From Chloroflexota bacterium (GTDB lineage Bacteria; Chloroflexota; UBA11872; VXOZ01): 64,000 nucleotides of DNA. Location: contig OZ244922.1 of assembly GCA_965221905.1 (NCBI GenBank), positions 2,816,001 through 2,880,000 on the forward strand, given 5' to 3'. Both the position numbers and the translations under genes were made by a program. A model generated the notes under the pieces. That model saw only the letters and a program-made list of their open reading frames with translations, was not told where the DNA came from and searched no databases. This document shows positions 1-14,989 of the stretch, piece after piece (the stretch's first letter is position 1; every line of letters starts with the position of its first letter).

Positions 1-264
1 TTGCTCTGAGAACGGTCTCTCATCCGGGATGCCGAATACGGTCCACCATTGCGGTGGACTGTACTGCGAGCCGTCTTGTTTCAAGCAGTTTACCCACCGG
101 ATCGACCCCTCCTGCACGTCGATGATTCCCTGGGAACGGTTCGACCAGGCATTCTGGATCTTCTCCTCCGGTCGTTCGCGCTCCGCCAGCGTGGCTCTAA
201 TGCCCAGCGCGTTCAAGGCAAGCGTCAGTTCATCTCTCGTCTTGTCCCGCAAGCGTTCCTTCAT
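1..264 (-). CDS. Hypothetical protein, partial (runs off window start)
   Basis: ATG at 264, open frame MKERLRDKTRDELTLALNALGIRATLAER... to position 1; 30 bp downstream of the SPFH gene on the same strand. Confidence 0.6.
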   Translation of the reverse strand, partial: MKERLRDKTRDELTLALNALGIRATLAERERPEEKIQNAWSNRSQGIIDVQEGSIRWVNCLKQDGSQYSPPQWWTVFGIPDERPFSEQ

Positions 265-294
265 CTATTATCTCTTGGTCAAGGCTGCTATTGG

Positions 295-1152
295 CTAGTT
301 GGAAGTGGTGTTGACCACGGGTTGGATGGCGTTTTCGCTGGTGAGGACGACGAGCAGATTGCTTACCAAGGCTGCCCGGCTCTTCTTGTCGAATTCGATG
401 ACTTCGCGTTCGGCAAGCATGCCGAGCGCGTTTTCGACCATACCCACGGCCCCTTCAACGATCTTCTGGCGGGCGGCGATTACGGCGTCGGCCTGCTGGC
501 GACGCAGCATGACGGCGGCAATCTCCGGTGCATACGCCAGGTGGCTAACTCTCGCCTCCAGCACCTCCACGCCGGCTTGCGCCAGACGCTCCTGAATCTC
601 GGTCTTGAGCTGATCTGAAACCTCCGCGGTGTGGGTGACGAGGCTAACCTCTTCTTCTTCGTGCGCGTCGTAGGCGTAGCCGGTCGCCAAGTTGCGCACC
701 GCCGCTTCGCTCTGCACGTGGACGTAGTTCTCGTAATCGTCCACTTGGAACGAGGCCTCGGCCGTATCCACCACCTGCCAAACGACGACGGCTGCAATCT
801 CAATGGGGTTGCCGCGGCGGTCATTCACCTTGACCCGACCGGTCTCGAAATTACGCACACGCAACGAAATTCGCGCTTTGCTGTAGAACGGATTGGTATA
901 GCGCAAGCCGGGCTTGCGGGCCGTGCCACGGTACGCCCCAAAGAGTTGGAGCACCTTTCCCTCATTGGGCGCGACTTTGAAAAATCCAAATACGCCGATT
1001 TTGAGCGCGAAAAAAATGATGATCGGCAAGACGAGCAGCAAGGACTCCATTGCTATCAAGACGACAAATCCAGCAATGTCTGCAAGCAGCAGCACGAGCC
1101 AAAGGACGAGCAATCCTATACCGGGAAGGCCGTCACGACGATTCTCTTGCAT
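295..1152 (-). CDS. SPFH/band 7 domain membrane protein
   Basis: Two N-terminal TM segments; GNPIEIAAVVVW, HLAYAPEIA and MLRRQQA motifs typical of bacterial SPFH proteins. Confidence 0.9.
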   Translation of the reverse strand: MQENRRDGLPGIGLLVLWLVLLLADIAGFVVLIAMESLLLVLPIIIFFALKIGVFGFFKVAPNEGKVLQLFGAYRGTARKPGLRYTNPFYSKARISLRVRNFETGRVKVNDRRGNPIEIAAVVVWQVVDTAEASFQVDDYENYVHVQSEAAVRNLATGYAYDAHEEEEVSLVTHTAEVSDQLKTEIQERLAQAGVEVLEARVSHLAYAPEIAAVMLRRQQADAVIAARQKIVEGAVGMVENALGMLAEREVIEFDKKSRAALVSNLLVVLTSENAIQPVVNTTSN

Positions 1153-1198
1153 CGTTCAATTACCCTTTCAGTGCGGTGAGTTCGGTTACCTGATAGTC

Positions 1199-3310
1199 TT
1201 ACGAAATTCCGCGGTCTATCCAGACTGCCGCATAGAATTCTAACCGCGGGAGACGAACGCTCAGTTTACCGTCTGTGTAATTGGTTTCAAGCGCGCTGCC
1301 ATGCAAATCCCACGCCGACGTTGTCCGGTCGTTCGGCAAGGGTATGTGAAGAGTAATGTCATGCACCGGCGCTACGTGGCGAAAATAGCCGCGACTGGTA
1401 AGTGTAGCAGATAGATTGACAAAAAAGAACACGGATTGGCCCGCGGGCGCTTCTCGCCCCATGACGAGGACAGTGGGCGGCGCGTTCTCAACAGTGAATG
1501 GTAACGCTCCACCCACGTGCCGAATACACTTGACGAGCAACTGATTCAACTCGTCACAGGATTCTCTTGCTGCTGCGCACTCGACGGGCGCGGCGAAATA
1601 GACCACGTTGCCGTGTACCGTTGCTAACGGCATCTGCGGAACACCCGCAAAGGGCATCCGGCGGTTGAAGAGCGCGGTGTTTATCAGCGCTTGGTCGAAA
1701 TCTAGCACATCGGCAACTACCGTAGTGCCTGTAAGCGGCTCCGCTTGCACGACAGGCGCTTCGAAGTCCAGTCGCACGCCGGTCAAATCGTCCATGAACG
1801 CGGGCGCGTCATTCCGAACCCGCCCGTAGAAAAAGTCGCTCGCATGCTGACTCGGTACCGGGACGTGTGGTGAGAGATCGGCAACTTGACGGTGATGCGA
1901 CAGCGTATCAAAGCGGGTCACGCCAAGGAGATCACGTAGGGGATCAATGGCAGTGCCGTCTGATTTCGGTTCCGGCGCACTGCCCGTTCCCAGCCCGGTG
2001 CGATAACTTGCCAACAGGCCGCCTCCCTCTGCGACGAATTCCTCCACCTTTGCCACAATCGCCGCAGGTAAGACCTCCGCATTGCCCAGCAGCAGGCACG
2101 CATAGTCGCTGAGCGCACCGCAAGCAATGTCATCTTCGGTAACGATGGCGAACGGAATGTGCTCCTCGCACAGCAAGCGGTACCAACCATAGAAGCTAGC
2201 ATCATAGGCTTCGCCGCGTTGCCTTTGCGTTGCATGCGAGTGCAAGAGCGCAGCATAGCGTATTGGCGCCGTATCCACCGCCTCGGCATGGACGTTGCTT
2301 AACTCACGCAGCGCCGTGAAGAGCCGCCGGCGCTTTGGCTCCGGGTCGGTATCGAGCGCATCTTGATCGCGGAAGACAATCGGGTTGCCATTCGCCACCG
2401 CTGCCGCCGACTGCACAATGCCGTGCACGAGCGGCACGGAGCGCGGGGTGTAGTTGTCGTACTTCACTTCGCCATAGGCAGGAGCACCGCCGTACCGCTC
2501 GGTTAGTGTCCGGTCGGCCATTACCCCAATCGTGTCCCGCGAACCGTGACCGCCTTCAGTGCGGGTGCCAGCGACCACTTCCGGCAGAAATCCGTCAACA
2601 ATACCACGTCCCAAGCGTGCCCGGGGTCCGACGAGGTGGTTTGCGACAAGCGCAGTATCGGGACGGATTTCATTGATGACATGGCGTACGTTGCGAAGAA
2701 AGGCTACGCGCTTGGCATCGGCAAACTCCTCCAACTCCCGCTCGTTAGGATTCCCCCAGTAGATGTGGCCGTAGCGATAGCTTGCGGGCGTATCGGCTGA
2801 GAACGGAAGCTCTTTTCCGTAAATCTCTGCGAACTGCTGGCGACAGTACGCACAGTAACAGCCCGTCATCAACTGATCGAAATAGATGCCGTCTACCGCA
2901 TAGTTGGTCAATACTTCGCGCACCTGCGCAAAGACAAAGTCACGAAGCGGCCCATTATAACAAACCAATATGAACGGGCTGCCATCCGGGCCGCGTACAA
3001 TCCAGTCGGGATGTTCGCGAGCCTGCAGCGCATTGCCTGGCAGCGTTCCCAGCCAACACGCTATAAGCCTATTGCCACGATTGTGGTTCTCTGCGACAAG
3101 GGCTTCGAGCAGATCAAAGGCGAGACCCGGGGAGCGAGGCGCTAGGCTGCTATCGTAGATAACCGCGCCGCCGACTTGCACCATGTACTGGTGCACGGTC
3201 GCGCCCATCTCCACCATCTTCACCGCTTGGTGTCGGGCGTAGTCCCGCGTAACCGGACGATCCACGGTGAGCCAATCGAGATAGGCCGTTCCTGCTTGCA
3301 GCCACTTCAT
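1199..3310 (-). CDS. Putative glycoside hydrolase (GHL6/GH42-like TIM barrel + beta-galactosidase trimerization domain)
   Basis: HPDW, VDGIYFD, CYCxxC Zn motif, HIPF..V, FVAEGGGLLA trimerization-like segment. Confidence 0.7.
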   Translation of the reverse strand: MKWLQAGTAYLDWLTVDRPVTRDYARHQAVKMVEMGATVHQYMVQVGGAVIYDSSLAPRSPGLAFDLLEALVAENHNRGNRLIACWLGTLPGNALQAREHPDWIVRGPDGSPFILVCYNGPLRDFVFAQVREVLTNYAVDGIYFDQLMTGCYCAYCRQQFAEIYGKELPFSADTPASYRYGHIYWGNPNERELEEFADAKRVAFLRNVRHVINEIRPDTALVANHLVGPRARLGRGIVDGFLPEVVAGTRTEGGHGSRDTIGVMADRTLTERYGGAPAYGEVKYDNYTPRSVPLVHGIVQSAAAVANGNPIVFRDQDALDTDPEPKRRRLFTALRELSNVHAEAVDTAPIRYAALLHSHATQRQRGEAYDASFYGWYRLLCEEHIPFAIVTEDDIACGALSDYACLLLGNAEVLPAAIVAKVEEFVAEGGGLLASYRTGLGTGSAPEPKSDGTAIDPLRDLLGVTRFDTLSHHRQVADLSPHVPVPSQHASDFFYGRVRNDAPAFMDDLTGVRLDFEAPVVQAEPLTGTTVVADVLDFDQALINTALFNRRMPFAGVPQMPLATVHGNVVYFAAPVECAAARESCDELNQLLVKCIRHVGGALPFTVENAPPTVLVMGREAPAGQSVFFFVNLSATLTSRGYFRHVAPVHDITLHIPLPNDRTTSAWDLHGSALETNYTDGKLSVRLPRLEFYAAVWIDRGIS

Positions 3311-3336
3311 GCCGTCATCTTTCTATCAGATTCTGA

Positions 3337-4362
3337 TCATGCACGAACAAAAGTAATGTCAATAGTCGCGCCGGCCTGCACCCTGCAGGTAAAGCGTATC
3401 CGCCGTTCGCCGTCCGGAGAGACACTCACGGCTCCATCCGGCCCCTGCACCTGCACGGGACCGTGGTCATCTGCAAAAGTCACGAGAAACGTTAACTCAC
3501 CGTCCTCGATCTGTGTCGGAAGTTGCGGGAAATCAACATTGATAGAGGCACGAGAGTCCGACTCTTGCTCGATGGCAGCCGCGCAATGGCGTCGCAAGTA
3601 GGCATAGCGCACCACGTCGTCCGGATTTGCAGCCCACATTCTGTCGCCAAAGATCGTGCGCATCTGATCGAATCGCCCCTCCAGCGCGCTTGGTGAAATG
3701 CACTTGTGCCCCTGCGGTGTCTTGTAGAGTACCAAGTGCGTGACGTCTACCAGCCACTGCCCCTGCACCCGCTCCGGCTCGAACCCGCCACGCGAGAGCC
3801 ACGTAGGCAGGTATTCTATTTCGTCGTCCTCGCACAGGCGGTTGCGCCAGATGCTGAATGGATCGAAGTCCGGCTGGTTTATGTGTTCAGCGTCGTTGGA
3901 GGCACGTGTCAGACCGAGATAGCCCGGCACACGCCTCACCCACGCCCGCACCGTGTCGTAGACTTCGAAGCTGTTCCAAGAGGAAAAAATCGGCGCCGGT
4001 TGGCCGAGCGCCTGTTCCAAGATGTGGTAGGACTCCACAATCTCCTGCCTGAAGTCAATGCTATCGGGGTCGCGCAAAGGGGGATGGCAAAAGCTGTGAT
4101 TGCTTATGCTCCAGCCCTGCGACAAGAGGAACCTCAGATGCTCCGGCCCCATGTGGAAGTAGTCGTTCAGCGAACTACGCTCAACGTGGCGCTTCTCACC
4201 CAGTTGACCCGCCACCACCGCCACGTCGCCGGGGATGCCATACTGCTGACCAATGGGAAACGCATTCGCCAGACAATCGATGGTTCCTTCATCAAACACC
4301 ACCGAATAGACGAATGTTGCGTCATCTTTCCAGGGCGCAATCTCAACTGACGAAATTCTCAT
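3337..4362 (-). CDS. Polysaccharide deacetylase (NodB-like) family protein
   Basis: SVVFDEG motif 1 and SNHSFCH motif 2. Confidence 0.65.
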   Translation of the reverse strand: MRISSVEIAPWKDDATFVYSVVFDEGTIDCLANAFPIGQQYGIPGDVAVVAGQLGEKRHVERSSLNDYFHMGPEHLRFLLSQGWSISNHSFCHPPLRDPDSIDFRQEIVESYHILEQALGQPAPIFSSWNSFEVYDTVRAWVRRVPGYLGLTRASNDAEHINQPDFDPFSIWRNRLCEDDEIEYLPTWLSRGGFEPERVQGQWLVDVTHLVLYKTPQGHKCISPSALEGRFDQMRTIFGDRMWAANPDDVVRYAYLRRHCAAAIEQESDSRASINVDFPQLPTQIEDGELTFLVTFADDHGPVQVQGPDGAVSVSPDGERRIRFTCRVQAGATIDITFVRA

Positions 4363-4574
4363 CGCAACTCCTTCACCCCCGTGAGCTACTTGTCCCTACC
4401 AGCATATCGCTAAAGGAAGCTAAACTGAGATTCTCTCCATATACCTTGAGACTAGCCACTTGAGGCGGTCTTGCTCCGGTAGCGCAGGCTTACAACCTGC
4501 GTCTGCTGCCACAATGCCGCACTAGGACGGCTTCGTCGTTGATTCGGGACAGAATCCCATTCAGCCCACGCCTC

Positions 4575-4602
4575 CTGGACTCCGGCTTTCGCCGGAGTGA
4601 CG
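4575..4602 (-). repeat. CGTC-type palindromic repeat (family A), copy a
   Basis: Minus strand CGTCACTCCGGCGAAAGCCGGAGTCCAG hairpin; six related copies in window. Confidence 0.9.
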
Positions 4603-4646
4603 ATAAGCCGTCTCTCTCCTTTCCGCCCGCTTCGCATCTCTCAGAA

Positions 4647-5987
4647 TCAGGATATCCGCGCAGAATCGTAGACGCCCGCCATGCCAAGGTCCAGCGGGTT
4701 TACTTGCACCCAGACCTCGTCCGGCATGGTATCCCCTTCCAGTTCAAGCGAAACCGAGACTCGCTCAAGACCGGGCGCCGGTGCAATGAGATGTCCTATT
4801 TGACGCCGGATCAGTATATTCGATTCTTCGCGATTAGCCGCAGGGTCGGCAGCCGACTTGGGATCGCCGTTGAAGGCGACCGTCAGCATCCGGGCGACAT
4901 CAAAAGCGCCGGTGTTTTCCACAACAATGTCTGCCACAAGCCGACCATCGTCTCGGCGTACCTGTGAAGACGCCGTGTCAATGTGCAATCCTGGTGAAAG
5001 CTCCTGCGGCCTGAGCGAAACGGCCCGGTACGCATCGAAGATGCCATGTCCGAGCAAGGGGTCCCAGCCATTGCCCTGTGACGTGTTGCGCAGTATTTGG
5101 CGAATTTCCCGATTGGAGAGGTGCGGAAAGCGCGAGAAGGCCAGCGCCGCCACGCCGCCGCCAAAGGCAGACGCCATGCACCCGCCCTGGAAAGGAATGT
5201 AGTCGTGGTCGCCGCCGGTGCCCCAAATTGAGTCGGTAGGGTCATCCGTATCGCGTTCGCCGCCGGGCGTCGCCGCTTCCGCATAGTCTGCCGAGGCCGC
5301 GATATTCGCCGCCAAGTCGTGTTTATTCGTCGAGCCGACGGCGAAGACGCTATCCAAACCGGCATTTACCGTCGCTACCCGGCGTCCGCGATTGTCAGCA
5401 GTGCCTTTGAAGATCAGGCAGCCCGACTGGTAGGCGTAGTCGAGCGCCTCGATCAGGCCGATGTTGTCGTACGGATAGCTGAAATCTGTACCCTTATAGA
5501 ACAATGGGACACCGTCGTCGTGGTTCAGCGTGATGTACCCGTGGGGCATTACGAGCACCTTAGCTCCATGGTCGACCGCATAGCGCACGGCGCGCGGCCA
5601 ACTCTTTTGGTGGTGCGGCTCGTACCCCACGCGCAGAATCATGATAGGACACTTGGGAGCGGTCGCCGCTACCTCTCCCACCACAAACGCATGGTGTCCG
5701 CGAAGATACATCGTATCCGAGCGGGACCCTTCGTATTCGAGTGTGGCGTCTTCCTCGGCAAAGTCCCAGCCGTGGACGTCACCCCGCGTGGGGCGCGGAT
5801 TCACCCACAAGTGACCCTCATGATCGGGATGGAAGCGATAGCCCAAATCAATCACCGCCACTACCACGTCAGGGCTGCCCTGCGTAATGGCGTGGGCCTC
5901 CGGCACACGCATCTGATCGAGCGCCCAATCATACGGCTCGCGCACGCCCTCCGGCAGCACACCGCTCTGCTTCTCGGCAATAGCCAT
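4647..5987 (-). CDS. S8 (subtilisin-like) peptidase homolog with Cys at the nucleophile position
   Basis: VAVIDLG (Asp), RGHHAFVVG (His), ADN (oxyanion Asn), QGGCMAS in place of GTSMA, terminal GHGIFDA; no signal peptide. Confidence 0.8.
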   Translation of the reverse strand: MAIAEKQSGVLPEGVREPYDWALDQMRVPEAHAITQGSPDVVVAVIDLGYRFHPDHEGHLWVNPRPTRGDVHGWDFAEEDATLEYEGSRSDTMYLRGHHAFVVGEVAATAPKCPIMILRVGYEPHHQKSWPRAVRYAVDHGAKVLVMPHGYITLNHDDGVPLFYKGTDFSYPYDNIGLIEALDYAYQSGCLIFKGTADNRGRRVATVNAGLDSVFAVGSTNKHDLAANIAASADYAEAATPGGERDTDDPTDSIWGTGGDHDYIPFQGGCMASAFGGGVAALAFSRFPHLSNREIRQILRNTSQGNGWDPLLGHGIFDAYRAVSLRPQELSPGLHIDTASSQVRRDDGRLVADIVVENTGAFDVARMLTVAFNGDPKSAADPAANREESNILIRRQIGHLIAPAPGLERVSVSLELEGDTMPDEVWVQVNPLDLGMAGVYDSARIS

Positions 5988-6061
5988 TCTTGTCTCCTTT
6001 CGTACAGTCTCACTTCAGCCGAATTCGTTATTCCGGTTGAGCATATCGGGTCGACTCTGTC

Positions 6062-6089
6062 CGTCATTCCGGCGTAAGCCGGAATCCAG
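6062..6089 (+). repeat. CGTC-type palindromic repeat (family A), copy b
   Basis: CGTCATTCCGGCGTAAGCCGGAATCCAG. Confidence 0.9.
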
Positions 6090-6217
6090 TCCGCTCCATT
6101 AGGGCATTCGGGCGCTCACCGGAACCGGGATTGCCCCCTAGTGATACCTGCAGGAAATGTTAAACCCTATCCCCTCGGTCCATAATTCCGGTGCAAGCCG
6201 AAATCCTGTCTTCATAC

Positions 6218-7351
6218 TCACACAATAGCGACTTCCTGCGGGATCGTCCCCAAGCGCTCAAACCCATCGCTCCTCAGCACATACATGTCCTCCTCCAGCC
6301 AGGAGGACTCCAGAGAGACCACGTTGCCTTCCGCAAACGAAATCTCCGGCCTCACATCAACGGCAGAGGGCAGCAAGCTGCCTATCAACGGTTCCTCGTG
6401 CTTATCCATGCCCACGCCGTGAATCCACCACGAGTACTCCTCCGTATCGCTGAACTCGCGTTGGCAGGCATCGAATACTTCGCGCTTGGTCTTCCCCGGA
6501 CGCACGAATTCTTCCATGAAGAGTTGGCGCTCGCGGTGATTCTGCCAGACGGCCAGGCTCTCCTTGCGCGGCGTACCCACACAGAAGTTGAATTTTTGAT
6601 CGGAAAAGTAGCCGGCGGCGATAGCGGCAAGGTCGACGCGGTACACCAACCCCGCTTCCACCACGCCGGGACCGCGGATCACCGCTGCACCCGGCTGATC
6701 CCGCGAGCTGGAACCGGCGTGGGGCAGCATCCACGACACCGGAGACGTATTGATGGGCAAGGCACCGTTATCAAGCACTGACTTCGCCCATACCGTCACG
6801 AGGTCTTGAAACGTGATGCCCACACGCACCTCCCGCAGCATTTCTCGGTATCCAGATTCGGAGGCGGCAATTGCTTTGCGTAGCCATTGAATCTCCTGTG
6901 GCGTCTTGCGCGCCCGCGCGTCGGCAAGCAAGAGATCGGCGGAGACAAACGTGGCTTCCGGCAGCAGTTCTCTAAGCCGCTCCAAATCGCTCACCGCGGC
7001 AAAGTCCATGTCCAGACCGATACGCGCCCGTGCCAGGCCGCGTTGGCGCATCTCATCCGCCAGCGCCGTCAAACGCGCCGCACGGGTGTGGTCGGGCCCT
7101 AAGCTGTCAACCGGCAAGTCTGTATCCCGGAATCGACTGCCGAACGTAAACGACCGATCGGGAGGTATAAGGCACGTCATCCATGGCGCTAAGCCCTGCG
7201 GCTCATTGAGCCACGGGCCCTCGCTAATTGCACCCGCCAAATAAGCGCAATTCCGCATGCCCAGGACAAGCAGCGCGTCAAACTGCTGCTCCGCCATAGA
7301 CTGTGTTATGCGCACAAAGTCAGCCATGCTCGACACCCAAGTCAATCCCAA
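6218..7351 (-). CDS. M24 family metallopeptidase (Xaa-Pro aminopeptidase-like)
   Basis: Creatinase-like N-domain, RARKTPQEI, metal ligands VD..GYFSD, HGVG..HE, E..EE; start may be slightly downstream. Confidence 0.8.
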   Translation of the reverse strand: MGLTWVSSMADFVRITQSMAEQQFDALLVLGMRNCAYLAGAISEGPWLNEPQGLAPWMTCLIPPDRSFTFGSRFRDTDLPVDSLGPDHTRAARLTALADEMRQRGLARARIGLDMDFAAVSDLERLRELLPEATFVSADLLLADARARKTPQEIQWLRKAIAASESGYREMLREVRVGITFQDLVTVWAKSVLDNGALPINTSPVSWMLPHAGSSSRDQPGAAVIRGPGVVEAGLVYRVDLAAIAAGYFSDQKFNFCVGTPRKESLAVWQNHRERQLFMEEFVRPGKTKREVFDACQREFSDTEEYSWWIHGVGMDKHEEPLIGSLLPSAVDVRPEISFAEGNVVSLESSWLEEDMYVLRSDGFERLGTIPQEVAIV

Positions 7352-7464
7352 GAAATGTTCACGCCTTGCCGAGAGACAAATTCCGCCGGAGAAACTGGAC
7401 TGGTCGGTCAGTATTCATTGGCCATGCCACTCCTACACATCGAATAGGCCCAGCATACGGGGCT

Positions 7465-8544
7465 CTATTGACTCTCCCATAGCTCCTTATAGGCCGCATA
7501 TGCGGCTCGCGTCAGTTCGCCCAACTTGTCACTGCGCGCCTCCCAGTCGCTCACTGAGCGAAATGAGAACAGGATCTCTTCCGTCACCCGGTCCGTTACC
7601 TGTGCGCTACGTGGGGTGCGCGTCTCATATGGCATTTCTTGAGCATCCAGCTGATCGAAACTCTCCTTGCAGAGATCAATTGCCCAAGGATAGAATCGCA
7701 CCTTGACGGAATTCTGCCCCTTGTCTACTTCAATGGACGAGAAAGCATTATAGGAATAGCCTCCCGCTTCAGTCGGTTTAGACAGGTAGTAAGTAATTCC
7801 TGTCTTTCTTGGTTCTGGATAGGGATCCGAATACTTCCCTTGTACAATTTCCTTCCAGGACGTAGAGAACATCTCACGCGCAGCAGCCACTAGGTCGTCT
7901 ACGCCCACCTCCCTAGCTAGACTCTTTAGCGAACGCCATAGCTCCTCCCGCGATCTGCCAGGAGCAACCTCTTCTTTCGCAGCCACCTGCACCTGTTTGG
8001 CTAGCAAGGTTTTGCCAAGATATTCAAACCCGTAGAAAGTAAGCAAGGAGATGTCTATGCCGTGCTCGGCCAGATAGTCCACCATGCGCCGAGTTGCGTC
8101 ATCCGTTCCAAGTCCAACTAGGTACATTCGGAGTGGCCGCAGCGAGTCCAGCGAGCCCCTGAACCCTTCCCTGTACCATTCCACAAAGTCGTCGATCTTC
8201 TCTATTTCAGAATGGCCGGAGTTTTCAGTGATAAGGGCTGCCAATTCGCTCTCGCTCATGGCTTCAAGTGCAGAGCCATAGTCTATTACCTGCGCCACCG
8301 CCTCTCGGGATAGCGTGCCGCGCTTTAGCTCGAAAACCACGAGCCTGCCTTCACCATCTAATCCGAGTATATCCAGGAATCCGTCACCTACAGGTGTTTG
8401 GCGACCTATCAACTTTAGGTTCGGCTGCAACATCTCTGGATGCGCGACGAGCGTGTCCTCCAGACTACTCTCCAAGTCCATCGCTGTACGCTCTAATCGC
8501 ACTATCTGAGAGTCTTCAATTGCCCAGACCTCAATTTCATCCAT
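7465..8544 (-). CDS. NucS/DUF91-like PD-(D/E)XK endonuclease domain protein
   Basis: LE..L..HP, IGRQ, LDILGLD, VVFELKRG, AVAQVIDY; GAGG RBS before ATG 8544; visibly AT-richer than neighbours. Confidence 0.75.
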   Translation of the reverse strand: MDEIEVWAIEDSQIVRLERTAMDLESSLEDTLVAHPEMLQPNLKLIGRQTPVGDGFLDILGLDGEGRLVVFELKRGTLSREAVAQVIDYGSALEAMSESELAALITENSGHSEIEKIDDFVEWYREGFRGSLDSLRPLRMYLVGLGTDDATRRMVDYLAEHGIDISLLTFYGFEYLGKTLLAKQVQVAAKEEVAPGRSREELWRSLKSLAREVGVDDLVAAAREMFSTSWKEIVQGKYSDPYPEPRKTGITYYLSKPTEAGGYSYNAFSSIEVDKGQNSVKVRFYPWAIDLCKESFDQLDAQEMPYETRTPRSAQVTDRVTEEILFSFRSVSDWEARSDKLGELTRAAYAAYKELWESQ

Positions 8545-8595
8545 TTGCAACCTCAATGATGATGGGAATCGTACCCACAAAGACGTCAATCGTCA

Positions 8596-8623
8596 CTAGA
8601 CTCCGGCTTTCGCCGGAGTGACG
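8596..8623 (-). repeat. CGTC-type palindromic repeat (family A), copy c, inside CDS 3' end
   Basis: Minus strand CGTCACTCCGGCGAAAGCCGGAGTCTAG encodes VTPAKAGV-stop. Confidence 0.9.
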
Positions 8624-10434
8624 GTGGGCTCCAGCCAGATTGGGCTCGTCCACGCGCGATTGCCGTCCTGCTGGCGCACGCGCAGGTAGCAATAGTGGGC
8701 GTCCATAGGAGAAAACCGCAGCGGCACCTCGTCCTCCAATTGCACGTGCTGCTGACTGGGTGTGTAACTTCTGGCCGTGTCGCCGTTCACCACCAGGTCG
8801 ATCTGTTCGATGTCTGCCGTACCCACCACGTCCGCCGTAAAGCCAAAGCGGTCCGCCTGCACTGTGGAACCCACCCACGCGCCGTTCACGCGAAAATCAA
8901 CGATCATGCGCACGCCGCTTGTAGCGTAGCAGCGCCGGTTGAAGAGCGCATCGAAGATGGACGGTCTGTCCAGCCGTTCCGCCCACACGCCGGTTAGCCC
9001 GGCTACACCAGCCAGCGGCCCCGGTTCTTTGTAGGGATTGGCAGGCCGGCTGTCGTGGGTGTCGCTCCCGCTCACGAAGCCGAGCTTCACGCCTTGCATC
9101 AGGTACTGGTTGATCTTCTCTTCCTCCACCTCGCCGTCCGTTCTCTGCTTCTGATAGATCTCCGCCAGATGTTCTTGGACGTAGAAGTGTGTATGGAAGT
9201 GACCGTGCATTAGAGCTCCGCGGCGTTTCATTTCGCGGTAGAACTCTTGATAGTCGTTGCAGAAGACCGTGTCAGGGTGGAAACGCGCTTGGAGTCTCGG
9301 ATCGTGGGCCGCGGGCCGATCTTCGCAGAAAACCGGGGGCTGTCCCGCAATCTCTGGGAAGAAGGCATGCCGGTGACTGCCGTCGGGGGTGGTGCCGAAC
9401 TCCGCTGAAGGCAGCGCGACGAATTCCCCAGGTAGGTCATACTGCTGCCATGCGTCCTGAAGCGCTTCCCAAGTTTCTTTGATAGAAATACTGTAGGAGA
9501 ACAACTGGCCTCCGGCAAAGTCCAGGTCATTCACATCTTTGCCCCAGGCGAAGTGCTCGACGAAGGGGCGTTGGCTGAAGAGCATGCCGTGGGGATCACC
9601 CCAATAGAGCGAGAAGGGCGGCGGCTCTTCTGCGACCCGCACCGGGTTGCTCACGGCCTCGATGCCCCGATACGACGCCGTGACACTGTCTACCAGTCCC
9701 CGCACGGCTATCGTCCCTTCGGCGCTAAACGAATTAAGCGCGACCGTAGTCTTGCCACTGCCGGAACGCAAGGTCACCTCTCCCTGGGCATCGCGCACAG
9801 GATTGCCAAACCTATCGGTGACGACAACGCGAGTGGTCGCCTGCCCCGTGGTGTGAGAAGGCGTGGTTACTTGCAGGGCCGCCGGTTCAGCCTCCTTAAT
9901 CGCGAGCGGATTGCTCTCCAGCAAGGATAGTTCCGTATTCCGCGGCAGAAAGTAGTGGTGTTTGTCGCGTTCCGGGTGGTAGAACGTAAGCTCGCCAGAC
10001 GGGTCCTCGACCAGCCAAAACCGAAAGGCGTCGATGGCATTGCGGGGTAGCAGGAAGCCGTCAGGAGCAGTCTGCAGTTTCACCGTAACACTCTCTGCGG
10101 CCGTCACCGCGCCCTCAACGCACGTCACATGCACCACGTGGAGGAATTCAGGCGCCGGGAAATGAATATCAAACGTCCGCACCACGCCGCCACCAACGAG
10201 CGCCTCGGCCTCCCATGCCGATCCCGTCGGCCCGTGCACCGCAATCGATTCTGGCGACTCGAAGTTAAGCACCCACTCGTCAAGCTGGCGAATGTCGAAG
10301 AAGAACCAGAGATTCCCACCCGTCTGCAGGCCACCCGCCGGCGGCGTGTAGTGAAGCTGCAGCGTGACCGCTTCAGCAACTCGCAGCGGACCATCTACAC
10401 TGACCCGGAATCGCCCATTCACCCCCAAAGACAT
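8596..10434 (-). CDS. DUF3604/CehA-McbA-like PHP-fold metallohydrolase, duplicate copy
   Basis: LYWGDPH, HRH, GSDTH, RRCYATSG, AWTSPIW; collinear with 10888-12702; start set by paralog alignment (MSLGVNGRF vs MSANANGRF). Confidence 0.8.
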   Translation of the reverse strand: MSLGVNGRFRVSVDGPLRVAEAVTLQLHYTPPAGGLQTGGNLWFFFDIRQLDEWVLNFESPESIAVHGPTGSAWEAEALVGGGVVRTFDIHFPAPEFLHVVHVTCVEGAVTAAESVTVKLQTAPDGFLLPRNAIDAFRFWLVEDPSGELTFYHPERDKHHYFLPRNTELSLLESNPLAIKEAEPAALQVTTPSHTTGQATTRVVVTDRFGNPVRDAQGEVTLRSGSGKTTVALNSFSAEGTIAVRGLVDSVTASYRGIEAVSNPVRVAEEPPPFSLYWGDPHGMLFSQRPFVEHFAWGKDVNDLDFAGGQLFSYSISIKETWEALQDAWQQYDLPGEFVALPSAEFGTTPDGSHRHAFFPEIAGQPPVFCEDRPAAHDPRLQARFHPDTVFCNDYQEFYREMKRRGALMHGHFHTHFYVQEHLAEIYQKQRTDGEVEEEKINQYLMQGVKLGFVSGSDTHDSRPANPYKEPGPLAGVAGLTGVWAERLDRPSIFDALFNRRCYATSGVRMIVDFRVNGAWVGSTVQADRFGFTADVVGTADIEQIDLVVNGDTARSYTPSQQHVQLEDEVPLRFSPMDAHYCYLRVRQQDGNRAWTSPIWLEPTVTPAKAGV

Positions 10435-10529
10435 CACCAATGCTCCCTGGGCTCTACCATTTGAAGTGACGGATACACAGTACACTTGTGCTACGGCATC
10501 GTATCATAAACACACCTCTTGGCAGTAAG

Positions 10530-10749
10530 CAGACGAGAAGACGCAGCGGGCGTCCTTGCGCCAATTCGGGCTCGACCCCGGCACCTGACCGTCAGCCTGG
10601 GTCTCGTGCACGTAGTGCCAGGCCGCGCAGTCTTGGGTAAACTCGATTTCGCCCAAAGTCAAGACGCTGCACCAGCCCGGGCTTCCCACCGCGTGCCGGT
10701 CACGGCTGTTCTCTACCACGACCACAATGGCAAGCAGGACTGGTTCATG
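10530..10749 (-). pseudogene. Decayed copy of the 3' end of the DUF3604 gene at 13124-14674
   Basis: HEPVLLAIVVVVENSRDRHAVGSPGW...WHYVHETQADGQVPGSSPNWRKDARCVF aligns without gaps to HGTAPLAKVVVVKNNQDWHVVEKPGW...WYYVRVTQEDGEMAWSSPIWIEDARRIF. Confidence 0.8.
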
Positions 10750-10750
10750 C

Positions 10751-10778
10751 CGTCATTCTGGCGCGGGCCGGAATCCAA
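10751..10778 (+). repeat. CGTC-type palindromic repeat (family A), copy d (degenerate)
   Basis: CGTCATTCTGGCGCGGGCCGGAATCCAA. Confidence 0.8.
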
Positions 10779-10887
10779 GCTAACTCTTGCTGCCACGCCG
10801 TTCCCGGCCGCAATCCCCCTCTGCTACACAATACGCCGCCCGCCGCAAGACAACACCCAAGCCCTCAAGTGCATTTTTCTACGGCGC

Positions 10888-12702
10888 CTACGCCATGGTC
10901 TCCAGCCAAATTGGGCTCGTCCACGCGCGATTGCCGTCCTGCTGGCGCACGCGCAGGTAGCAGTAGTTTGCGCCGATAGGAGAGAACCGCAGCGGCACCT
11001 CATCCTCAAGCTGCACGTGCTGTCGATTTGGCGTGTAGCTTCTGGCCGTATCGCCATTTACCACCAGGTCTATCTGCTCGATGTTTGCTGTTCCGACCAC
11101 GTCCGCCGTAAACGTGAAGCTGTCGGACTCTACCGTGGAACCTATCCAACTATCGTTCACGCGAAAGTCTACGATGATGCGCACGCCGCTGGTGGCGTAG
11201 CAGCGTCGGTTGAAGAGCGCATCGAATAGTGTGGGGCGGTCCAGCCGCTCCGCCCACACACCCGTCAGTCCTCCGGGACCGGATGGCCCCGGCTCCTTAT
11301 AGGGGTTCGCGGGCCGATTGTCGTGTGTGTCGCTGCCGCTAACGATGCCAAGCTTTAGGCCCCGCATCAGGAACTGGTTGATCTTTTCTTCCTCGGTAAC
11401 CCCGTCGGTCTGCTGCTTCTGATAGATTTCGGCCAGGTGTTCCTGCACGTAGAAGTGGGTGTGGAAGTGACCGTGAATGAGCGCTCCCCGGCGTTTCATT
11501 TCCCGGTAGAATTCCTGATAATCGCGGCAGAATACGGTATCAGGATGGTACCGGGCGCGGAGCTTTGGATCGTTCGCCGCGGGACGGTCTTCACAGAAGA
11601 CCGGCGGTTGGCCCGCAATCTGCGGGAAGAAGCCGTGACGGTGACTGCCGTCGGGCCCGGTGGCGAACTCCGCCGACGGCAACGCAACGAATTCACCCGG
11701 CAGGTCATATTTCGCCCACGCGTCCTGCAACTCTTCCCAGATCTCACTGATACATATGCTGTAGGAAAAGAGCTGACCTCCCGCAAAGTCTAGATCGTTT
11801 ACGTCCTTGCCCCAGGCGAAGTGTTCGACGATGGGGCGCTGGTTGAAGAGCATGCCGTGCGGGTCACCCCAATAGAGCGTGAAAGGGTCAGTATCCTTAT
11901 CGACTCGCACCGGGTTGCTCACGGCCTCAATGCCCCGATACGAGGCCGCGACTCCATCTACAGGACCCTGCACCGGCACTGTTCCCTCAGTGCTGAACGA
12001 GTTGAGCGCCGTCGTTGTCTCGCCGCTGGCAGTCCGCAGAGAGACCTCACCTTCGGCATCCCGGACGGGATTGCCAAATCTATCGGTGACGACGACCCGT
12101 GTCGTTGCCTGCCCCGTGGCAAGAGAGGGCGTGGTCACTTGCAGCACGGCCGGTTCGGCAGCATTGATCGTGAGCGGATTGCTCTCCAAGACCGAAAGTT
12201 CCGCCTCACGCGGCAGGAAGTAGTGGTACTTATCGCGGTCGGGGTGGTAGAGGGTAAGCTCGCCTGTTGGATCCTCCACGAGCCAGAAGCGGAAAGCGTC
12301 GATGGCGTTCTGGGGAAGTATGAATCCTTCAGGAACGCTACGCAGTTGAATGGCGATGTGATCGCCTGCCGCCACTGTGCCACCGACGCACTTCACGTGC
12401 ACCGCGTGGAGGAATTCGGGGGCCGGAGAGTGAATGTCAAACGTGCGCACCGTGCCGCCATCAAGGAGCGCCTCCGCTTGCCAGGCCGTGCCTGACGGCC
12501 CGTGCACGGTAATGGCATCGGCCGTCCTATACGTCTGCCTGCGTTCGCCAAACTGACGGATGTCGTAGAAAAACCAGAGATTGCCGCCAGTCTGCATACC
12601 GCCGTCAGGAGGCGCGTAGTGCAACTCCAGAGCCACAGTCTCTGCAACCTGCAGCGGCCCTTCTACACGTACTTGAAACCGTCCGTTGGCATTCGCCGAC
12701 AT
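10888..12702 (-). CDS. DUF3604/CehA-McbA-like PHP-fold metallohydrolase
   Basis: Same motifs as 8596-10434, high identity by eye. Confidence 0.8.
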   Translation of the reverse strand: MSANANGRFQVRVEGPLQVAETVALELHYAPPDGGMQTGGNLWFFYDIRQFGERRQTYRTADAITVHGPSGTAWQAEALLDGGTVRTFDIHSPAPEFLHAVHVKCVGGTVAAGDHIAIQLRSVPEGFILPQNAIDAFRFWLVEDPTGELTLYHPDRDKYHYFLPREAELSVLESNPLTINAAEPAVLQVTTPSLATGQATTRVVVTDRFGNPVRDAEGEVSLRTASGETTTALNSFSTEGTVPVQGPVDGVAASYRGIEAVSNPVRVDKDTDPFTLYWGDPHGMLFNQRPIVEHFAWGKDVNDLDFAGGQLFSYSICISEIWEELQDAWAKYDLPGEFVALPSAEFATGPDGSHRHGFFPQIAGQPPVFCEDRPAANDPKLRARYHPDTVFCRDYQEFYREMKRRGALIHGHFHTHFYVQEHLAEIYQKQQTDGVTEEEKINQFLMRGLKLGIVSGSDTHDNRPANPYKEPGPSGPGGLTGVWAERLDRPTLFDALFNRRCYATSGVRIIVDFRVNDSWIGSTVESDSFTFTADVVGTANIEQIDLVVNGDTARSYTPNRQHVQLEDEVPLRFSPIGANYCYLRVRQQDGNRAWTSPIWLETMA

Positions 12703-12798
12703 AGTTCGCTGCCGCCTTTCGTCTCACTGCTTGAATTGCCTGGTATTTGACACTATGGCCCTGCGGTATCGTATCACAGGATGCGGCAAGGTGCTCTT

Positions 12799-12979
12799 GC
12801 TCATCGCCTGAAGTAGGGGCGGTTCGCCAAATGTTGGGGCGGTTCGCCAAATGTTGGGGCGGTTCGCCTGATGTTGGGGCGGTTCGCCTGCGTCGGGGCT
12901 CATCGCCTGATGTAGGGGCGGTTCGCCTGATGTAGGGGCGGTTCGCCTGATGTAGGGGCGGTTCGCGAACCGCCCCTAC
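12799..12979 (+). repeat. 20-nt tandem array of REP left arms ending in a complete GTAG-type REP
   Basis: Units GT(A/T)GGGGCGGTTCGCC(TG/AA)AT; perfect palindrome GTAGGGGCGGTTCGCGAACCGCCCCTAC at 12952-12979. Confidence 0.9.
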
Positions 12980-13123
12980 GCAGAATTGCACTCCCACGCT
13001 CGCCAACATGCAGGTACCGCATAGCACGGATGAGGATAAATTCCCGCTTGCGCGGAATTGACAGATCACATTTCCGCTTGAAAGGCAATTGCTGAGAATT
13101 GGAGAACAATCTGCGCAAATTGC

Positions 13124-14674: not shown

Positions 14675-14989
14675 GAAATCGCTCCTAAGAAAATACGAGA
14701 TCAAGTATTAGGAGATTTTGGCCTGCAGATGCGCAGCCAATAGCATGCGGTATGTTGTGATTAACCACCGTCAAATTAACGAAAGAGTCAACTATTCGCG
14801 CACATATATCCCAGTACTATTGTAAGAATACATCAATATCGCTATCATTGGCATGCGCAGACAAAGGGAGCCAAAGAAAGCATCAGAACACCGTCTTATG
14901 TCAACGGATTCTTTGTCTCCTTGCTAACTGCTAGAATCCTCACTGCATCTCGACAAGGACTCACCTTTACAGTCATTAGGAGAACCACA

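What the first reader, a model, noticed from the sequence alone, without database searches (positions are those of the whole stretch)
4647..5987. Candidate natural thiol-subtilisin: catalytic Ser replaced by Cys
Seen: the Asp (VIDLG), His (GHHAFVVG) and oxyanion Asn (ADN) segments are present, but GTSMA reads GGCMA (TGC, Cys270, codon 5178-5180). The neighbouring Thr and the HGT motif also differ, which suggests coordinated divergence rather than a single error. There is no signal or pro-peptide. Known: engineered Ser-to-Cys subtilisins lose amidase activity and favour ester hydrolysis and acyl transfer. Inference: a cytoplasmic Cys-nucleophile hydrolase or acyltransferase on the S8 fold.
Basis: partly seen in the sequence, partly recalled or inferred. 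Interest (0 to 1): 0.7.

Follow-up and report, generated by a model that had tools for sequence, protein, structure and literature searches.

The report
Natural cysteine-nucleophile subtilisin family
This gene encodes a cytoplasmic subtilisin-fold enzyme whose catalytic serine is naturally a cysteine, and it belongs to a conserved, apparently undescribed clade that carries the same changes chemists engineered to turn subtilisin into a peptide ligase.

Summary
ORF 4647..5987 (-) encodes a 446-aa Peptidase_S8 homologue with Cys270 (TGC, 5180..5178) at the position of Ser221.

It is not an error. GGCM is invariant in 121 of 121 aligned family members, and both Cys codons are used (39 TGC, 12 TGT in 51 loci). 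Asp47, His98 and Asn199 are conserved and align to Asp32, His64 and Asn155 of subtilisin BPN'.

Two compensating changes go with it. Thr220 is Gly. Pro225 is Gly or Ala, the same change as in engineered subtiligase (S221C/P225A).

The AlphaFold model (pLDDT 94.9) superposes on thermitase at Z 35.4, 2.2 Å over 259 residues.

In a tree, 29 Cys-bearing sequences fall on one side of a fully supported branch against 52 Ser subtilases. The window's genome has three S8 genes, and all three are Cys-type.

The protein has no signal peptide and no pro-peptide, and it carries an unassigned C-terminal β-domain.

Across phyla it sits beside CE4-like, URO-D-like, GFO/IDH/MocA and DegT genes. In this genome it sits beside M24-like and ABC-uptake genes.

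Best reading: an active thiol hydrolase, or possibly an acyl-transferase, working on imported small amide or ester substrates. The substrate is unknown.

Five literature searches found only engineered thiol-subtilisins.

The parts
4647..5987 (-). Gene for the 446-aa Cys-type subtilase (stop codon included)
   Evidence: ORF, start and Shine-Dalgarno. (PF00082, 52.9 bits). (188 homologues).
5013..5957 (-). Subtilisin-fold catalytic domain, residues 11-325
   Evidence: thermitase 1thm at Z 35.4, rmsd 2.2 Å over 259 residues, model range 11..325. Foldseek E 4.7e-19, TM 0.84 normalised to the target.
5847..5849 (-). Asp47 codon, equivalent to Asp32 of subtilisin BPN'
   Evidence: present in 119 of 119 non-gap rows; aligns to the Asp of VAVIDSG in 1gns.
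5694..5696 (-). His98 codon, equivalent to His64 (HHAFVVG against HGTHVAG)
   Evidence: 119 of 120. domain 2 alignment; lies in helix 93-109.
5391..5393 (-). Asn199 codon, equivalent to the oxyanion-hole Asn155
   Evidence: 121 of 121. domain 3 alignment.
5379..5390 (-). Arg200-Gly-Arg202-Arg203 cluster directly after the oxyanion Asn. Arg200 sits at the Glu156 (S1 rim) position.
   Evidence: R200 117 of 121, R202 121 of 121, R203 120 of 121. alignment. The role in binding an anionic substrate is inferred.
5178..5180 (-). Cys270 codon (TGC), at the nucleophile position of Ser221
   Evidence: 121 of 121. TGC 39, TGT 12; aligns to Cys221 of the S221C variant 1gns.
5181..5183 (-). Gly269 codon, at the Thr220 position
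   Evidence: 121 of 121. Gly in 24 of 26 Cys-type representatives, against Thr in 96 of 101 Ser-type ones.
5166..5168 (-). Ala274 codon, at the Pro225 position. This is the same substitution as P225A in subtiligase.
   Evidence: Gly 108, Ala 11, Ser 1, Glu 1 of 121. alignment; passages of PMC7921005 on P225A and on the need for Gly or Ala.
5472..5537 (-). Family-specific insertion (residues 151-172) after the PHG strand that replaces subtilisin's S125-L126-G127. It contains invariant G166 and D168.
   Evidence: alignment to thermitase shows 15- and 5-residue insertions; invariant and near-invariant columns.
4650..4988 (-). C-terminal β-sandwich domain (residues 334-446) with invariant Q396, H399 and G406. 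No family assigned.
   Evidence: seven β-strands, pLDDT 94-98; invariant columns; no Pfam family beyond PF00082 in 60 of 60 members; the ESM Atlas hint of CARDB is a lead only.
3337..4362 (-). Downstream neighbour: cytoplasmic CE4-like (Polysacc_deac_1) protein, the neighbour most often conserved across phyla
   Evidence: PF01522, E 4.8e-9; within 4 genes in 14 of 29 non-redundant locus groups, and immediately downstream in 9.
6218..7351 (-). Upstream neighbour: M24 / Creatinase_N-like hydrolase, also adjacent to the paralogue elsewhere in this genome
   Evidence: cluster c3 is adjacent in groups gA and gB. L089 5877-6980.
4581..4596 (.). Palindromic hairpin repeat just downstream of the gene
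   Evidence: depth spike in bin 4568-4634.
6068..6083 (.). A second copy of the same hairpin repeat just upstream of the gene
   Evidence: depth spike in bin 6042-6108.

Best explanation
The gene encodes a catalytically competent, cytoplasmic thiol-subtilase: a subtilisin-fold enzyme using a Cys270-His98-Asp47 triad and an Asn199 oxyanion hole.

The larger sulfur is accommodated by Gly at the Thr220 position and by Ala or Gly at the Pro225 position. The protein is made without a signal peptide or folding pro-peptide and carries a conserved C-terminal β-domain.

It belongs to a clade of natural Cys-type subtilases that is scattered across many bacterial phyla and at least one archaeal MAG.

Its most likely job is to form a thioester acyl-enzyme and hydrolyse an amide (or ester) bond in a small imported compound, such as a peptide-like or N-acylated amino-sugar-type conjugate. 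It would do this as one step of a catabolic gene cluster.

Shown: the sequence anatomy, conservation, fold, clade structure and gene neighbourhood.

Inferred: activity, reaction type and substrate class.
For: 1. Homology and fold. PF00082 scores over its cut-off. The model has pLDDT 94.9. It superposes on thermitase at Z 35.4, 2.2 Å over 259 residues, and on savinase over 255 of 269 residues at 2.0 Å.

2. The catalytic positions map one-to-one onto subtilisin BPN': D47=D32, H98=H64, N199=N155, C270=221. The best PDB sequence hit of the family profile is the S221C variant 1gns.

3. Selection. GGCM is invariant in 121 of 121, and D, H and N are invariant or nearly so. Both Cys codons are used, 39 TGC and 12 TGT. 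A pseudoenzyme would not be expected to keep the whole triad and the oxyanion residue.

4. The compensating changes match protein-engineering experience. The Pro225 position is Gly in 108 and Ala in 11 of 121. [quoted passage not shown]

5. One clade. 29 Cys rows, plus one Ser row and one other row, sit on one side of a branch against 52 Ser rows. SH-aLRT support is 100, and the split holds with 16 motif columns removed.

6. Cytoplasmic and pro-peptide-less.

7. Catabolic context.
- In 29 non-redundant locus groups, a CE4-like gene lies within 4 genes in 14, GFO/IDH/MocA in 12, URO-D-like in 11, a DegT aminotransferase in 7, AraC in 7 and DUF3604 in 6. At least one of the first four is present in 23 of 29.
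- In the window's own genome, all three Cys-S8 genes lie beside ABC solute-binding-protein genes and small-molecule amidohydrolase or amine-oxidase-type genes: M24-like, M14-like, DAO, GCV_T, a GS-like gene and a creatininase.

8. The near-invariant Arg200, Arg202 and Arg203 at the S1 rim, together with a family-specific insertion next to the substrate-binding strand, suggest a remodelled, specific pocket rather than a broad protease cleft. This point is inference.
Against: - No biochemical data exist. Engineered S221C subtilisins are poor amidases (PMC7921005 passages), so efficient amide hydrolysis is not guaranteed.
- The Cys-His distance could not be measured, because no model coordinates are returned.
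- His98 lies five residues into helix 93-109 in the model. From memory, subtilisin's His64 sits at the helix start, so the local geometry may differ.
- The gene neighbourhood is heterogeneous: sugar-type enzymes in most phyla, and amino-acid or methylamine-type enzymes in this genome. 6 of 29 locus groups have none of the four common neighbours.
- In the window itself the gene is separated from both neighbours by 230-284 nt containing hairpin repeats, so co-transcription is unproven.
- The neighbourhood analysis used crude ORF calling and BLAST clustering, and several loci are cut by contig ends.
- No characterised homologue of the CE4-like neighbour was found in the PDB, and the URO-D-like neighbour matched only uroporphyrinogen decarboxylases, a methylcobalamin:CoM methyltransferase and CdmB weakly (best E 8.5e-06), which does not point to a substrate.
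Confidence: 0.6

Rival explanations
1. A natural 'subtiligase'. The thioester acyl-enzyme is resolved mainly by an amine rather than by water, so the enzyme builds or transfers amide bonds. For example, it could aminoacylate or peptidylate an amino sugar made by the neighbouring GFO/IDH/MocA dehydrogenase and DegT aminotransferase, or act as a transpeptidase.
For: - The Cys nucleophile with Gly or Ala at position 225 is the pair of changes that converts subtilisin into a ligase favouring aminolysis (PMC7921005 passages).
- A dehydrogenase plus aminotransferase pair that could generate an amine acceptor is a frequent neighbour: 12 and 7 of 29 locus groups.
Against: - The AraC-type regulators, ABC uptake components and many hydrolases in the clusters look catabolic.
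- No obvious activated acyl donor or ATP-grasp/adenylation gene was seen in the neighbourhoods examined.
- Natural Cys-His-Asp/Asn proteases on other folds hydrolyse amides well (general knowledge), so a Cys alone does not imply a ligase.
- The window's own locus lacks the dehydrogenase and aminotransferase pair.
Confidence: 0.15
2. A general intracellular protease, analogous to the Bacillus intracellular subtilisins (ISPs), that degrades cytoplasmic proteins or imported oligopeptides. Cys simply replaces Ser, with no special link to the neighbouring genes.
For: - No signal peptide or pro-peptide, as in ISPs.
- The genome has no Ser-type S8 at all, so these three genes are its only subtilases.
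- Peptidase-family neighbours (M24-like, M14-like) and ABC solute-binding proteins fit peptide use.
Against: - The conserved cross-phylum neighbourhood with CE4-like, URO-D-like, GFO/IDH/MocA and DegT genes is not what a housekeeping protease shows.
- The distribution is very patchy: 4 of 151 genomes sampled from the phylum, all in one genus.
- The ISP N-terminal LIP[YF] motif (recalled from memory) is absent in 0 of 120.
- The binding-cleft strand is remodelled, with an insertion and an Arg cluster.
Confidence: 0.15
3. A non-catalytic pseudo-protease (a binding or scaffolding protein) in which Cys is a tolerated replacement.
For: - S8 pseudoproteases exist, for example CspA and CspC of C. difficile (PMC7200643, abstract and passages).
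- Engineered S221C alone is a poor enzyme.
Against: - All four catalytic positions and the compensating residues are invariant or nearly so across sequences down to 47% identity.
- Both Cys codons are used.
- Pseudoenzymes typically lose triad conservation.
Confidence: 0.05
4. A sequencing or assembly artefact, or a strain-private mutation of a normal Ser subtilase.
For: None found.
Against: - 121 of 121 homologues from many independent assemblies carry Cys.
- 51 loci in named MAGs of many phyla carry it.
- Contigs from several studies cover the gene.
Confidence: 0.01

Closest known systems
Subtilases (Peptidase S8, Pfam PF00082), e.g. thermitase, savinase, subtilisin BPN'
   Same: - Same α/β fold: Z 35.4, 2.0-2.2 Å over 255-259 residues.
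- Same order and positions of Asp, His, oxyanion Asn and nucleophile.
- The Met after the nucleophile is kept.
   Different: - The nucleophile is Cys, not Ser.
- Thr220 is Gly, Pro225 is Gly or Ala, and HGTH is HHAF.
- About 20 residues are inserted after the S125-G127-equivalent strand, and 9 residues after the PG motif.
- An Arg cluster follows the oxyanion Asn.
- There is no signal peptide or I9 pro-peptide, and there is an extra conserved C-terminal β-domain.
- Only 22-30% identity.
Engineered thiol-subtilisin, subtiligase and peptiligase (S221C, S221C/P225A)
   Same: - Cys at position 221 and a small residue (Ala or Gly) at position 225.
- The S221C variant 1gns is the best PDB sequence hit of the family profile.
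   Different: - Natural and ancient, and only about 22-27% identical.
- Also has Gly at position 220, which the passages I read do not mention for the engineered enzymes.
- Cytoplasmic and multi-domain.
- Whether it favours aminolysis is unknown.
Intracellular subtilisin proteases (ISPs) of Bacillus and relatives
   Same: Cytoplasmic S8 enzymes without a signal peptide or a classical pro-domain.
   Different: - ISPs use Ser.
- Their N-terminal LIP[YF] inhibitory motif (recalled from memory) is absent here in 0 of 120.
- ISPs have no comparable C-terminal domain.
Mycosins (TIGR03921), the best-scoring NCBIfam model
   Same: The C-terminal half of the catalytic domain aligns.
   Different: - The score is 94.2 against a cut-off of 278.75, so it is not a member.
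- Mycosins are membrane-anchored Ser proteases of type VII secretion.
Other folds with both Ser and Cys nucleophiles, such as the chymotrypsin fold (viral 3C proteases) and α/β-hydrolases (dienelactone hydrolase). This comparison is recalled general knowledge.
   Same: A natural Ser/Cys interchange within one catalytic scaffold, with the rest of the triad kept.
   Different: A different fold. In the literature searched here, no such interchange is described for the subtilisin fold.

Membership tests
Peptidase S8 / subtilase superfamily (homology) | Sequence match to PF00082 above the curated cut-off | tested here: met
   52.9 bits against 21.8; 60 of 60 family members match.
Peptidase S8 / subtilase superfamily (homology) | Subtilisin α/β fold | tested here: met
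   1thm at Z 35.4, rmsd 2.2 Å over 259 of 279 residues. TM 0.84 normalised to the target.
Peptidase S8 as a serine peptidase | Catalytic Asp and His in the order Asp-His-nucleophile | tested here: met
   D47=Asp32, H98=His64.
Peptidase S8 as a serine peptidase | Serine nucleophile (GTSMA motif) | tested here: not met
   Cys270, GGCM in 121 of 121.
Peptidase S8 as a serine peptidase | Oxyanion-hole Asn (Asn155) | tested here: met
   N199 in 121 of 121.
Peptidase S8 as a serine peptidase | Proteolytic activity | not testable with these tools
   Needs an enzyme assay.
Thiol-subtilisin / subtiligase-like active site (works-like comparison) | Cys at position 221 | tested here: met
   alignment to 1gns.
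Thiol-subtilisin / subtiligase-like active site (works-like comparison) | Small residue (Ala or Gly) at position 225 | tested here: met
   Ala274 in the window protein; Gly 108 and Ala 11 of 121. for the engineered rule.
Thiol-subtilisin / subtiligase-like active site (works-like comparison) | Preference for aminolysis over hydrolysis | not testable with these tools
   Needs kinetics.
Intracellular subtilisin proteases (ISP) | No signal peptide | tested here: met
   crude hydropathy test, 115 of 120 without a hydrophobic N-terminus.
Intracellular subtilisin proteases (ISP) | N-terminal LIP[YF] motif (recalled from memory) | tested here: not met
   0 of 120.
Intracellular subtilisin proteases (ISP) | Ser nucleophile | tested here: not met
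Mycosin (TIGR03921) | Score over the curated cut-off | tested here: not met
   94.2 against 278.75.
CARDB (PF07705) C-terminal domain | Pfam match in the C-terminal 110 residues | tested here: inconclusive
   no match in 60 of 60 members at E <= 0.01; neighbouring ESM Atlas clusters carry CARDB in 15-86% of members. The separate fold of the domain failed.

The most novel reading that the evidence does not exclude
Nature evolved its own 'subtiligase' long before protein engineers did. This is a clade of Cys-His-Asp (and in some members Cys-His-Glu) subtilisin-fold enzymes, including secreted multi-domain forms, whose thioester intermediate is used for acyl transfer. The core family would attach or exchange aminoacyl or peptidyl groups on amino-sugar-type amines inside the cell. 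That would make the subtilisin fold a mixed Ser/Cys catalytic scaffold and a source of natural peptide ligases.
Probability: 0.12. Interest if true: 0.9.

Novelty: new variant of a known kind. Interest (0 to 1): 0.72.

Why it matters
Subtilisin is a textbook serine protease. Its Ser-to-Cys conversion is a classic of chemical and protein engineering, and it usually cripples amidase activity unless Pro225 is also made small.

A conserved natural clade that carries Cys221 together with Gly220 and Gly or Ala at 225 shows that evolution found the same solution. It would make the subtilisin fold a mixed-nucleophile scaffold, as the chymotrypsin fold already is.

It matters in three ways:
- It gives ready-made starting points for peptide ligases and thioester biocatalysts.
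- It exposes a systematic mis-annotation. The only functional name any source gives these proteins is 'S8 family serine peptidase' or 'subtilisin family serine protease'; the rest are 'hypothetical protein' or unnamed.
- It points to an uncharacterised, cross-phylum catabolic gene cluster (CE4-like, URO-D-like, GFO/IDH/MocA, DegT, DUF3604) whose substrate is unknown.

Tried and rejected
- Artefact or private mutation: rejected.
- Rfam scan of window 1-20000: no RNA family.
- Earlier findings of this scan, looked up by sequence: nothing.
- Literature: five full-text searches returned only engineered thiol-subtilisins or unrelated cysteine proteases. I also searched three papers with 'find'.
  - PMC7200643: mentions cysteine only in other contexts.
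  - PMC11593635, a 2024 review of the catalytic core of subtilisin-like proteins: 0 occurrences of 'cysteine' or 'Cys'.
  - PMC12445089, a 2025 review of MEROPS cysteine-protease clans: 0 occurrences of 'subtilisin'.
  - Subscription journals, MEROPS, InterPro/CDD notes and supplements were not searchable.
- C-terminal domain:
  - Pfam found nothing in 60 of 60 members.
  - A first attempt to scan the 119-row alignment exceeded the size limit and was replaced by a 60-row alignment.
  - A separate fold of the domain (alignment A3) was interrupted.
  - VIA and Foldseek hits cover only residues 10-330.
- PDB sequence searches for the CE4-like and URO-D-like neighbours gave no informative characterised relative.
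- Read laying used contigs only, so it shows presence but not transcription. RNA-library contigs covering the gene (X19 record 20, 4574-6069, 113 differences; several X17 pieces) may include DNA carry-over. The apparent 'joints' 4603 to 6061 are explained by the shared hairpin repeat on both sides, not by a deletion.
- I considered a creatinine pathway reading, because creatininase, an M24 creatinase-like gene and SHMT are all in the window. The matches are only family-level, so I did not adopt it.
- No complex prediction was run, because I make no binding claim.
Full report
**1. The observation**

The minus-strand ORF 4647..5987 encodes 446 residues. The ATG at 5987..5985 is preceded by GGAG six bases upstream.

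The protein contains VAVIDLGY (Asp47), RGHHAFVVGE (His98, His99), GTADNRGRR (Asn199) and FQGGCMASAFGG. Cys270 is encoded by TGC at 5180..5178.

Database matches:
- Pfam assigns Peptidase_S8 over the curated cut-off (52.9 bits against 21.8, E 4.5e-14, residues 40-315).
- The best NCBIfam model, mycosin, scores far below its cut-off (94.2 against 278.75).

**2. Not an error: a conserved family**

A word-indexed search of 5.8 billion proteins returned 188 homologues. The best 120 are 47-97% identical and have a median length of 449 aa.

In a MAFFT alignment of the query plus these 120:
- G268, G269, C270 and M271 are invariant (121 of 121).
- Asp47 is present in 119 of 119 non-gap rows.
- His98 is present in 119 of 120.
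- Asn199 is present in 121 of 121.
- Arg200, Arg202 and Arg203 are present in 117, 121 and 120 of 121.

A scan of one genome per prokaryotic species found 337 relatives, of which the best 80 were kept.
- Loci L001-L047 and L052 carry GGCM, and so do three more distant loci (L049-L051, about 33% identity).
- All 27 loci at 30% identity or less (L054-L080) carry Ser.
- Two loci (L048, L053) do not cover the site.

Among the 51 loci with GGCM, the Cys codon is TGC 39 times and TGT 12 times. The two Gly codons vary among all four synonymous forms. Selection therefore acts on the amino acid.

Contigs from several sequencing studies cover the gene.
- One run's contig is identical over 4575-6300, though it may be the source sample.
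- None of the 40 difference rows shown touches 5178-5180. A further 172 rows were not shown.

**3. Catalytic anatomy**

A profile of the family was searched against all PDB sequences. Its best hit is 1gns, a subtilisin BPN' S221C variant (E 6.9e-19). The printed alignments give the following equivalences.

| Window protein | Subtilisin BPN' | Alignment |
|---|---|---|
| Asp47 | Asp32 | vvvAviDlG / VKVAVIDSG |
| His98 | His64 | ghhafvvGev / SHGTHVAGTV |
| Asn199 | Asn155 | |
| Arg200 | Glu156 | |
| Cys270 | residue 221 | |
| Ala274 | Pro225 | |

Position 274 is Gly in 108, Ala in 11, Ser in 1 and Glu in 1 of 121 sequences.

Passages of PMC7921005 state three things:
- Thiol-subtilisin (S221C) is strongly impaired.
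- Wells and co-workers restored activity with P225A, which relieves crowding by the larger thiol. The double mutant is subtiligase.

The natural family therefore carries the same pair of changes. It adds Gly at the Thr220 position.

Among the 150 best cluster representatives from the 1.84-billion-protein library, 130 cover the nucleophile column: 101 have Ser, 26 Cys and 3 another residue.

| Position | Cys rows (26) | Ser rows (101) |
|---|---|---|
| 220 | Gly in 24 | Thr in 96 |
| 225 | Pro 10, Gly 9, Ala 7 | Pro 92 |

**4. Fold**

AlphaFold2 with the 119-row alignment gave pLDDT 94.9 and pTM 0.92.

- Foldseek's top PDB hits are subtilisins and the engineered peptiligases (E about 5e-19, TM 0.84 normalised to the target).
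- VIA-align gives thermitase at Z 35.4, rmsd 2.2 Å over 259 residues (model residues 11-325). Savinase aligns over 255 of its 269 residues at 2.0 Å.

Secondary structure in the model places the catalytic residues as follows:
- Asp47 at the end of strand 42-47.
- Cys270 at the start of helix 269-286.
- Asn199 just after strand 191-195.
- His98 within helix 93-109.

The tools return no coordinates, so the Cys-His distance was not measured. This is the main untested structural point.

Relative to thermitase, the family has two insertions:
- About 20 residues right after the PHG strand that replaces S125-L126-G127. This insertion contains invariant G166 and D168.
- Nine residues after the PG motif.

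Residues 334-446 form a confident β-sandwich with invariant Q396, H399 and G406.
- Pfam recognises no domain there in 60 of 60 members.
- ESM Atlas neighbours sometimes carry CARDB, which is a lead only.

**5. Localisation**

The conserved P[YF]xW[AP][LY] motif that opens the catalytic domain starts at a median of residue 17 (found in 91 of 120 members). There is therefore no room for an I9-type pro-peptide.

By a crude hydropathy test, 115 of 120 members have no hydrophobic N-terminal segment. The protein is most likely cytoplasmic.

**6. A clade, not a single family**

The profile search found 59,053 S8 proteins at E <= 1e-3, but only 61 at E <= 1e-30.

Beyond the core family, which has GGCMA followed by GF, further Cys-type groups appear:
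- GGCMA.PHV proteins, some over 1,000 aa with signal-peptide-like N-termini (P0135, P0137, P0143, P0144).
- GGC[MQP] proteins that start directly at the catalytic domain and have Glu at the Asp32 position (P0147, P0153, P0159, P0160, P0187).

I built a quick IQ-TREE (LG+G4, SH-aLRT) of 83 catalytic domains: all Cys and odd rows, plus every second Ser row of those with a complete domain. It puts 29 Cys rows, one Ser row (P0133, GQSA) and one odd row (P0141) on one side of a branch with support 100, against 52 Ser rows. The 17 core-family rows form a group with support 100.

Removing 16 columns around the motif changes nothing.

The tree is unrooted, so 'Ser to Cys once, with a possible reversal' is the parsimonious reading, not a demonstrated one.

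**7. Distribution**

The window lies in a 3.52-Mb, single-contig, 99.6%-complete genome. Records 98% identical to this gene are labelled Chloroflexota MAGs.

That genome has exactly three PF00082 matches, and all three are Cys-type:
- The window gene.
- A paralogue of the same core family (E 1.9e-191); the paralogous copies in sister genomes (L016-L018) are 57-58% identical.
- A 491-aa gene reading AVIEKG / DHGTH / GGNQ / SGGCMAIPHV.

In a sample of 151 genomes from the phylum, the core family (E <= 1e-60) was found in 4. All four belong to the window's genus, and it was found in 0 of the other 96 genera sampled.

Elsewhere it occurs in MAGs labelled Verrucomicrobiota, Kiritimatiellae, Lentisphaerales, Planctomycetota, Armatimonadota, Gemmatimonadota, Spirochaetales, Clostridia and Bathyarchaeota. 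This patchy pattern suggests horizontal spread.

**8. Gene context**

I called ORFs crudely in the window and 52 loci and clustered them by BLASTP. I named the clusters with Pfam and NCBIfam.

Counts in the 29 non-redundant core-family locus groups:

| Neighbour family | Groups with it within four genes |
|---|---|
| CE4-like (Polysacc_deac_1) | 14 |
| GFO/IDH/MocA oxidoreductase (IolG-like) | 12 |
| URO-D-like (MtaA/CmuA-like) | 11 |
| DegT-family aminotransferase | 7 |
| AraC regulator | 7 |
| DUF3604 (CehA/McbA-like metallohydrolase) | 6 |
| M14-like | 3 |
| DAO-family amine oxidase | 3 |

At least one of the first four is present in 23 of 29 groups. The gene immediately downstream on the same strand is CE4-like in 9 groups and URO-D-like in 7.

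In the window, the same-strand run contains:
- An ABC solute-binding-protein gene.
- Three DUF3604 genes.
- A NucS_C-like gene.
- An M24 / Creatinase_N-like gene.
- The Cys-subtilase.
- A CE4-like gene.
- A GHL6 / GH42M-like gene.

A creatininase-family gene and SHMT lie just beyond.

The two other Cys-S8 genes of the genome lie among the following:
- Paralogue 2: solute-binding-protein genes, an ABC ATPase, another M24-like gene, a SelA-like PLP enzyme and a homocysteine S-methyltransferase.
- Paralogue 3: GCV_T, DAO, a glutamine-synthetase-like gene, an M14-like gene and two solute-binding-protein genes.

The common theme is uptake followed by intracellular breakdown of small nitrogen-containing compounds by several classes of amide hydrolase, often together with sugar-type oxidoreductase and aminotransferase pairs.

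**9. Mechanism proposed**

Shown: a complete, conserved Cys-His-Asp triad with an oxyanion Asn on a subtilisin fold. It has the steric adjustments known to make a Cys nucleophile work there. The protein is cytoplasmic and sits in catabolic clusters.

Inferred: His98 deprotonates Cys270, which attacks a carbonyl to give a thioester acyl-enzyme stabilised by Asn199. Water, or less probably an amine, resolves it.

The Arg200, Arg202 and Arg203 cluster at the S1 rim and the insertion beside the binding strand suggest a specific, possibly anionic, small substrate rather than proteins in general.

One plausible pathway logic, which is inference only, runs as follows:
- The CE4-like enzyme and the thiol-subtilase remove N-acyl or aminoacyl groups.
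- The freed amine is transaminated by the DegT-family enzyme.
- The resulting keto compound is reduced by the GFO/IDH/MocA enzyme.

I put about 0.6 on 'active thiol hydrolase on small imported amide or ester substrates'. I put 0.15 on a ligase or transferase, 0.15 on a general intracellular protease, and 0.05 on a pseudoenzyme.

**10. Comparison and novelty**

It is a homologous member of the S8 superfamily by sequence and fold. It fails the defining serine-nucleophile feature, so it should not be filed as a serine peptidase. It works most like engineered thiol-subtilisin or subtiligase.

Five full-text searches of about 8.4 million papers and preprints returned only engineered Cys-subtilisins.
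[quoted passage not shown] The paper contains no occurrence of 'cysteine'.
- A 2025 review of MEROPS cysteine-protease clans does not mention subtilisin.
- The source databases either leave the family unnamed, call it 'hypothetical protein', or name it 'S8 family serine peptidase' / 'subtilisin family serine protease'.
- Subscription literature, MEROPS and supplements could not be checked.

I rate it a new variant of a known kind, with an interest of 0.72.

Noticed in passing
window 4581-4596, 6068-6083, 8602-8617, 47988-48003, 48030-48045: A short palindromic hairpin repeat (TCCGGC-4 nt-GCCGGA) occurs 5 times, against 0.01 expected. It flanks the Cys-subtilase gene on both sides. Contig depth spikes enormously at these spots: up to 84,488 in bin 6042-6108, against about 96 over the gene. 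This suggests a very abundant REP/MITE-like element in these communities.
   Followed up: partly
own genome, G000:C1:2509514-2510764 (L083 817-2292, minus strand): The third S8 gene of the genome is also Cys-type but belongs to a different subfamily. It has Glu at the Asp32 position (AVIEKG), a canonical DHGTH motif, Pro225 retained (SGGCMAIPHV), and a C-terminal extension. The genome has no Ser-type S8 gene at all.
   Followed up: partly
proteins P0135, P0137, P0143, P0144 and loci L049-L051: A second Cys-type subfamily (GGCMA[NT]PHV) includes proteins of 570-1210 aa with signal-peptide-like N-termini. These would be apparently secreted natural thiol-subtilases.
   Followed up: no
proteins P0133 (GQSA) and P0134 (GQCA): Inside the Cys clade, one representative has Ser and a fragmentary one (not in the tree) with the same GQ.A motif has Cys. 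This is a possible reversal or a recent interchange of nucleophile.
   Followed up: no
window 8596-14704 (minus strand): Three tandem DUF3604 genes (629, 604 and 526 aa); the one scanned against NCBIfam (629 aa, 8596-10485) matches the CehA/McbA metallohydrolase domain. DUF3604 recurs near Cys-subtilases in 6 of 29 locus groups.
   Followed up: partly
window 17312-20060 and 6218-7351: A creatininase-family amidohydrolase, a serine hydroxymethyltransferase and an M24 / Creatinase_N-like gene lie in the same region. This resembles a creatinine/creatine-type breakdown route, but the matches are at family level only.
   Followed up: no
window 20164-24151 and 27784-28749: A DUF58 and transglutaminase-like (TgpA) gene pair, and a DDE transposase gene, lie further along the window.
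   Followed up: no
window 7465-8589 (minus strand): A 374-aa protein with only a NucS_C-like nuclease domain match sits between the DUF3604 genes and the M24-like gene. It seems out of place in a catabolic run.
   Followed up: no
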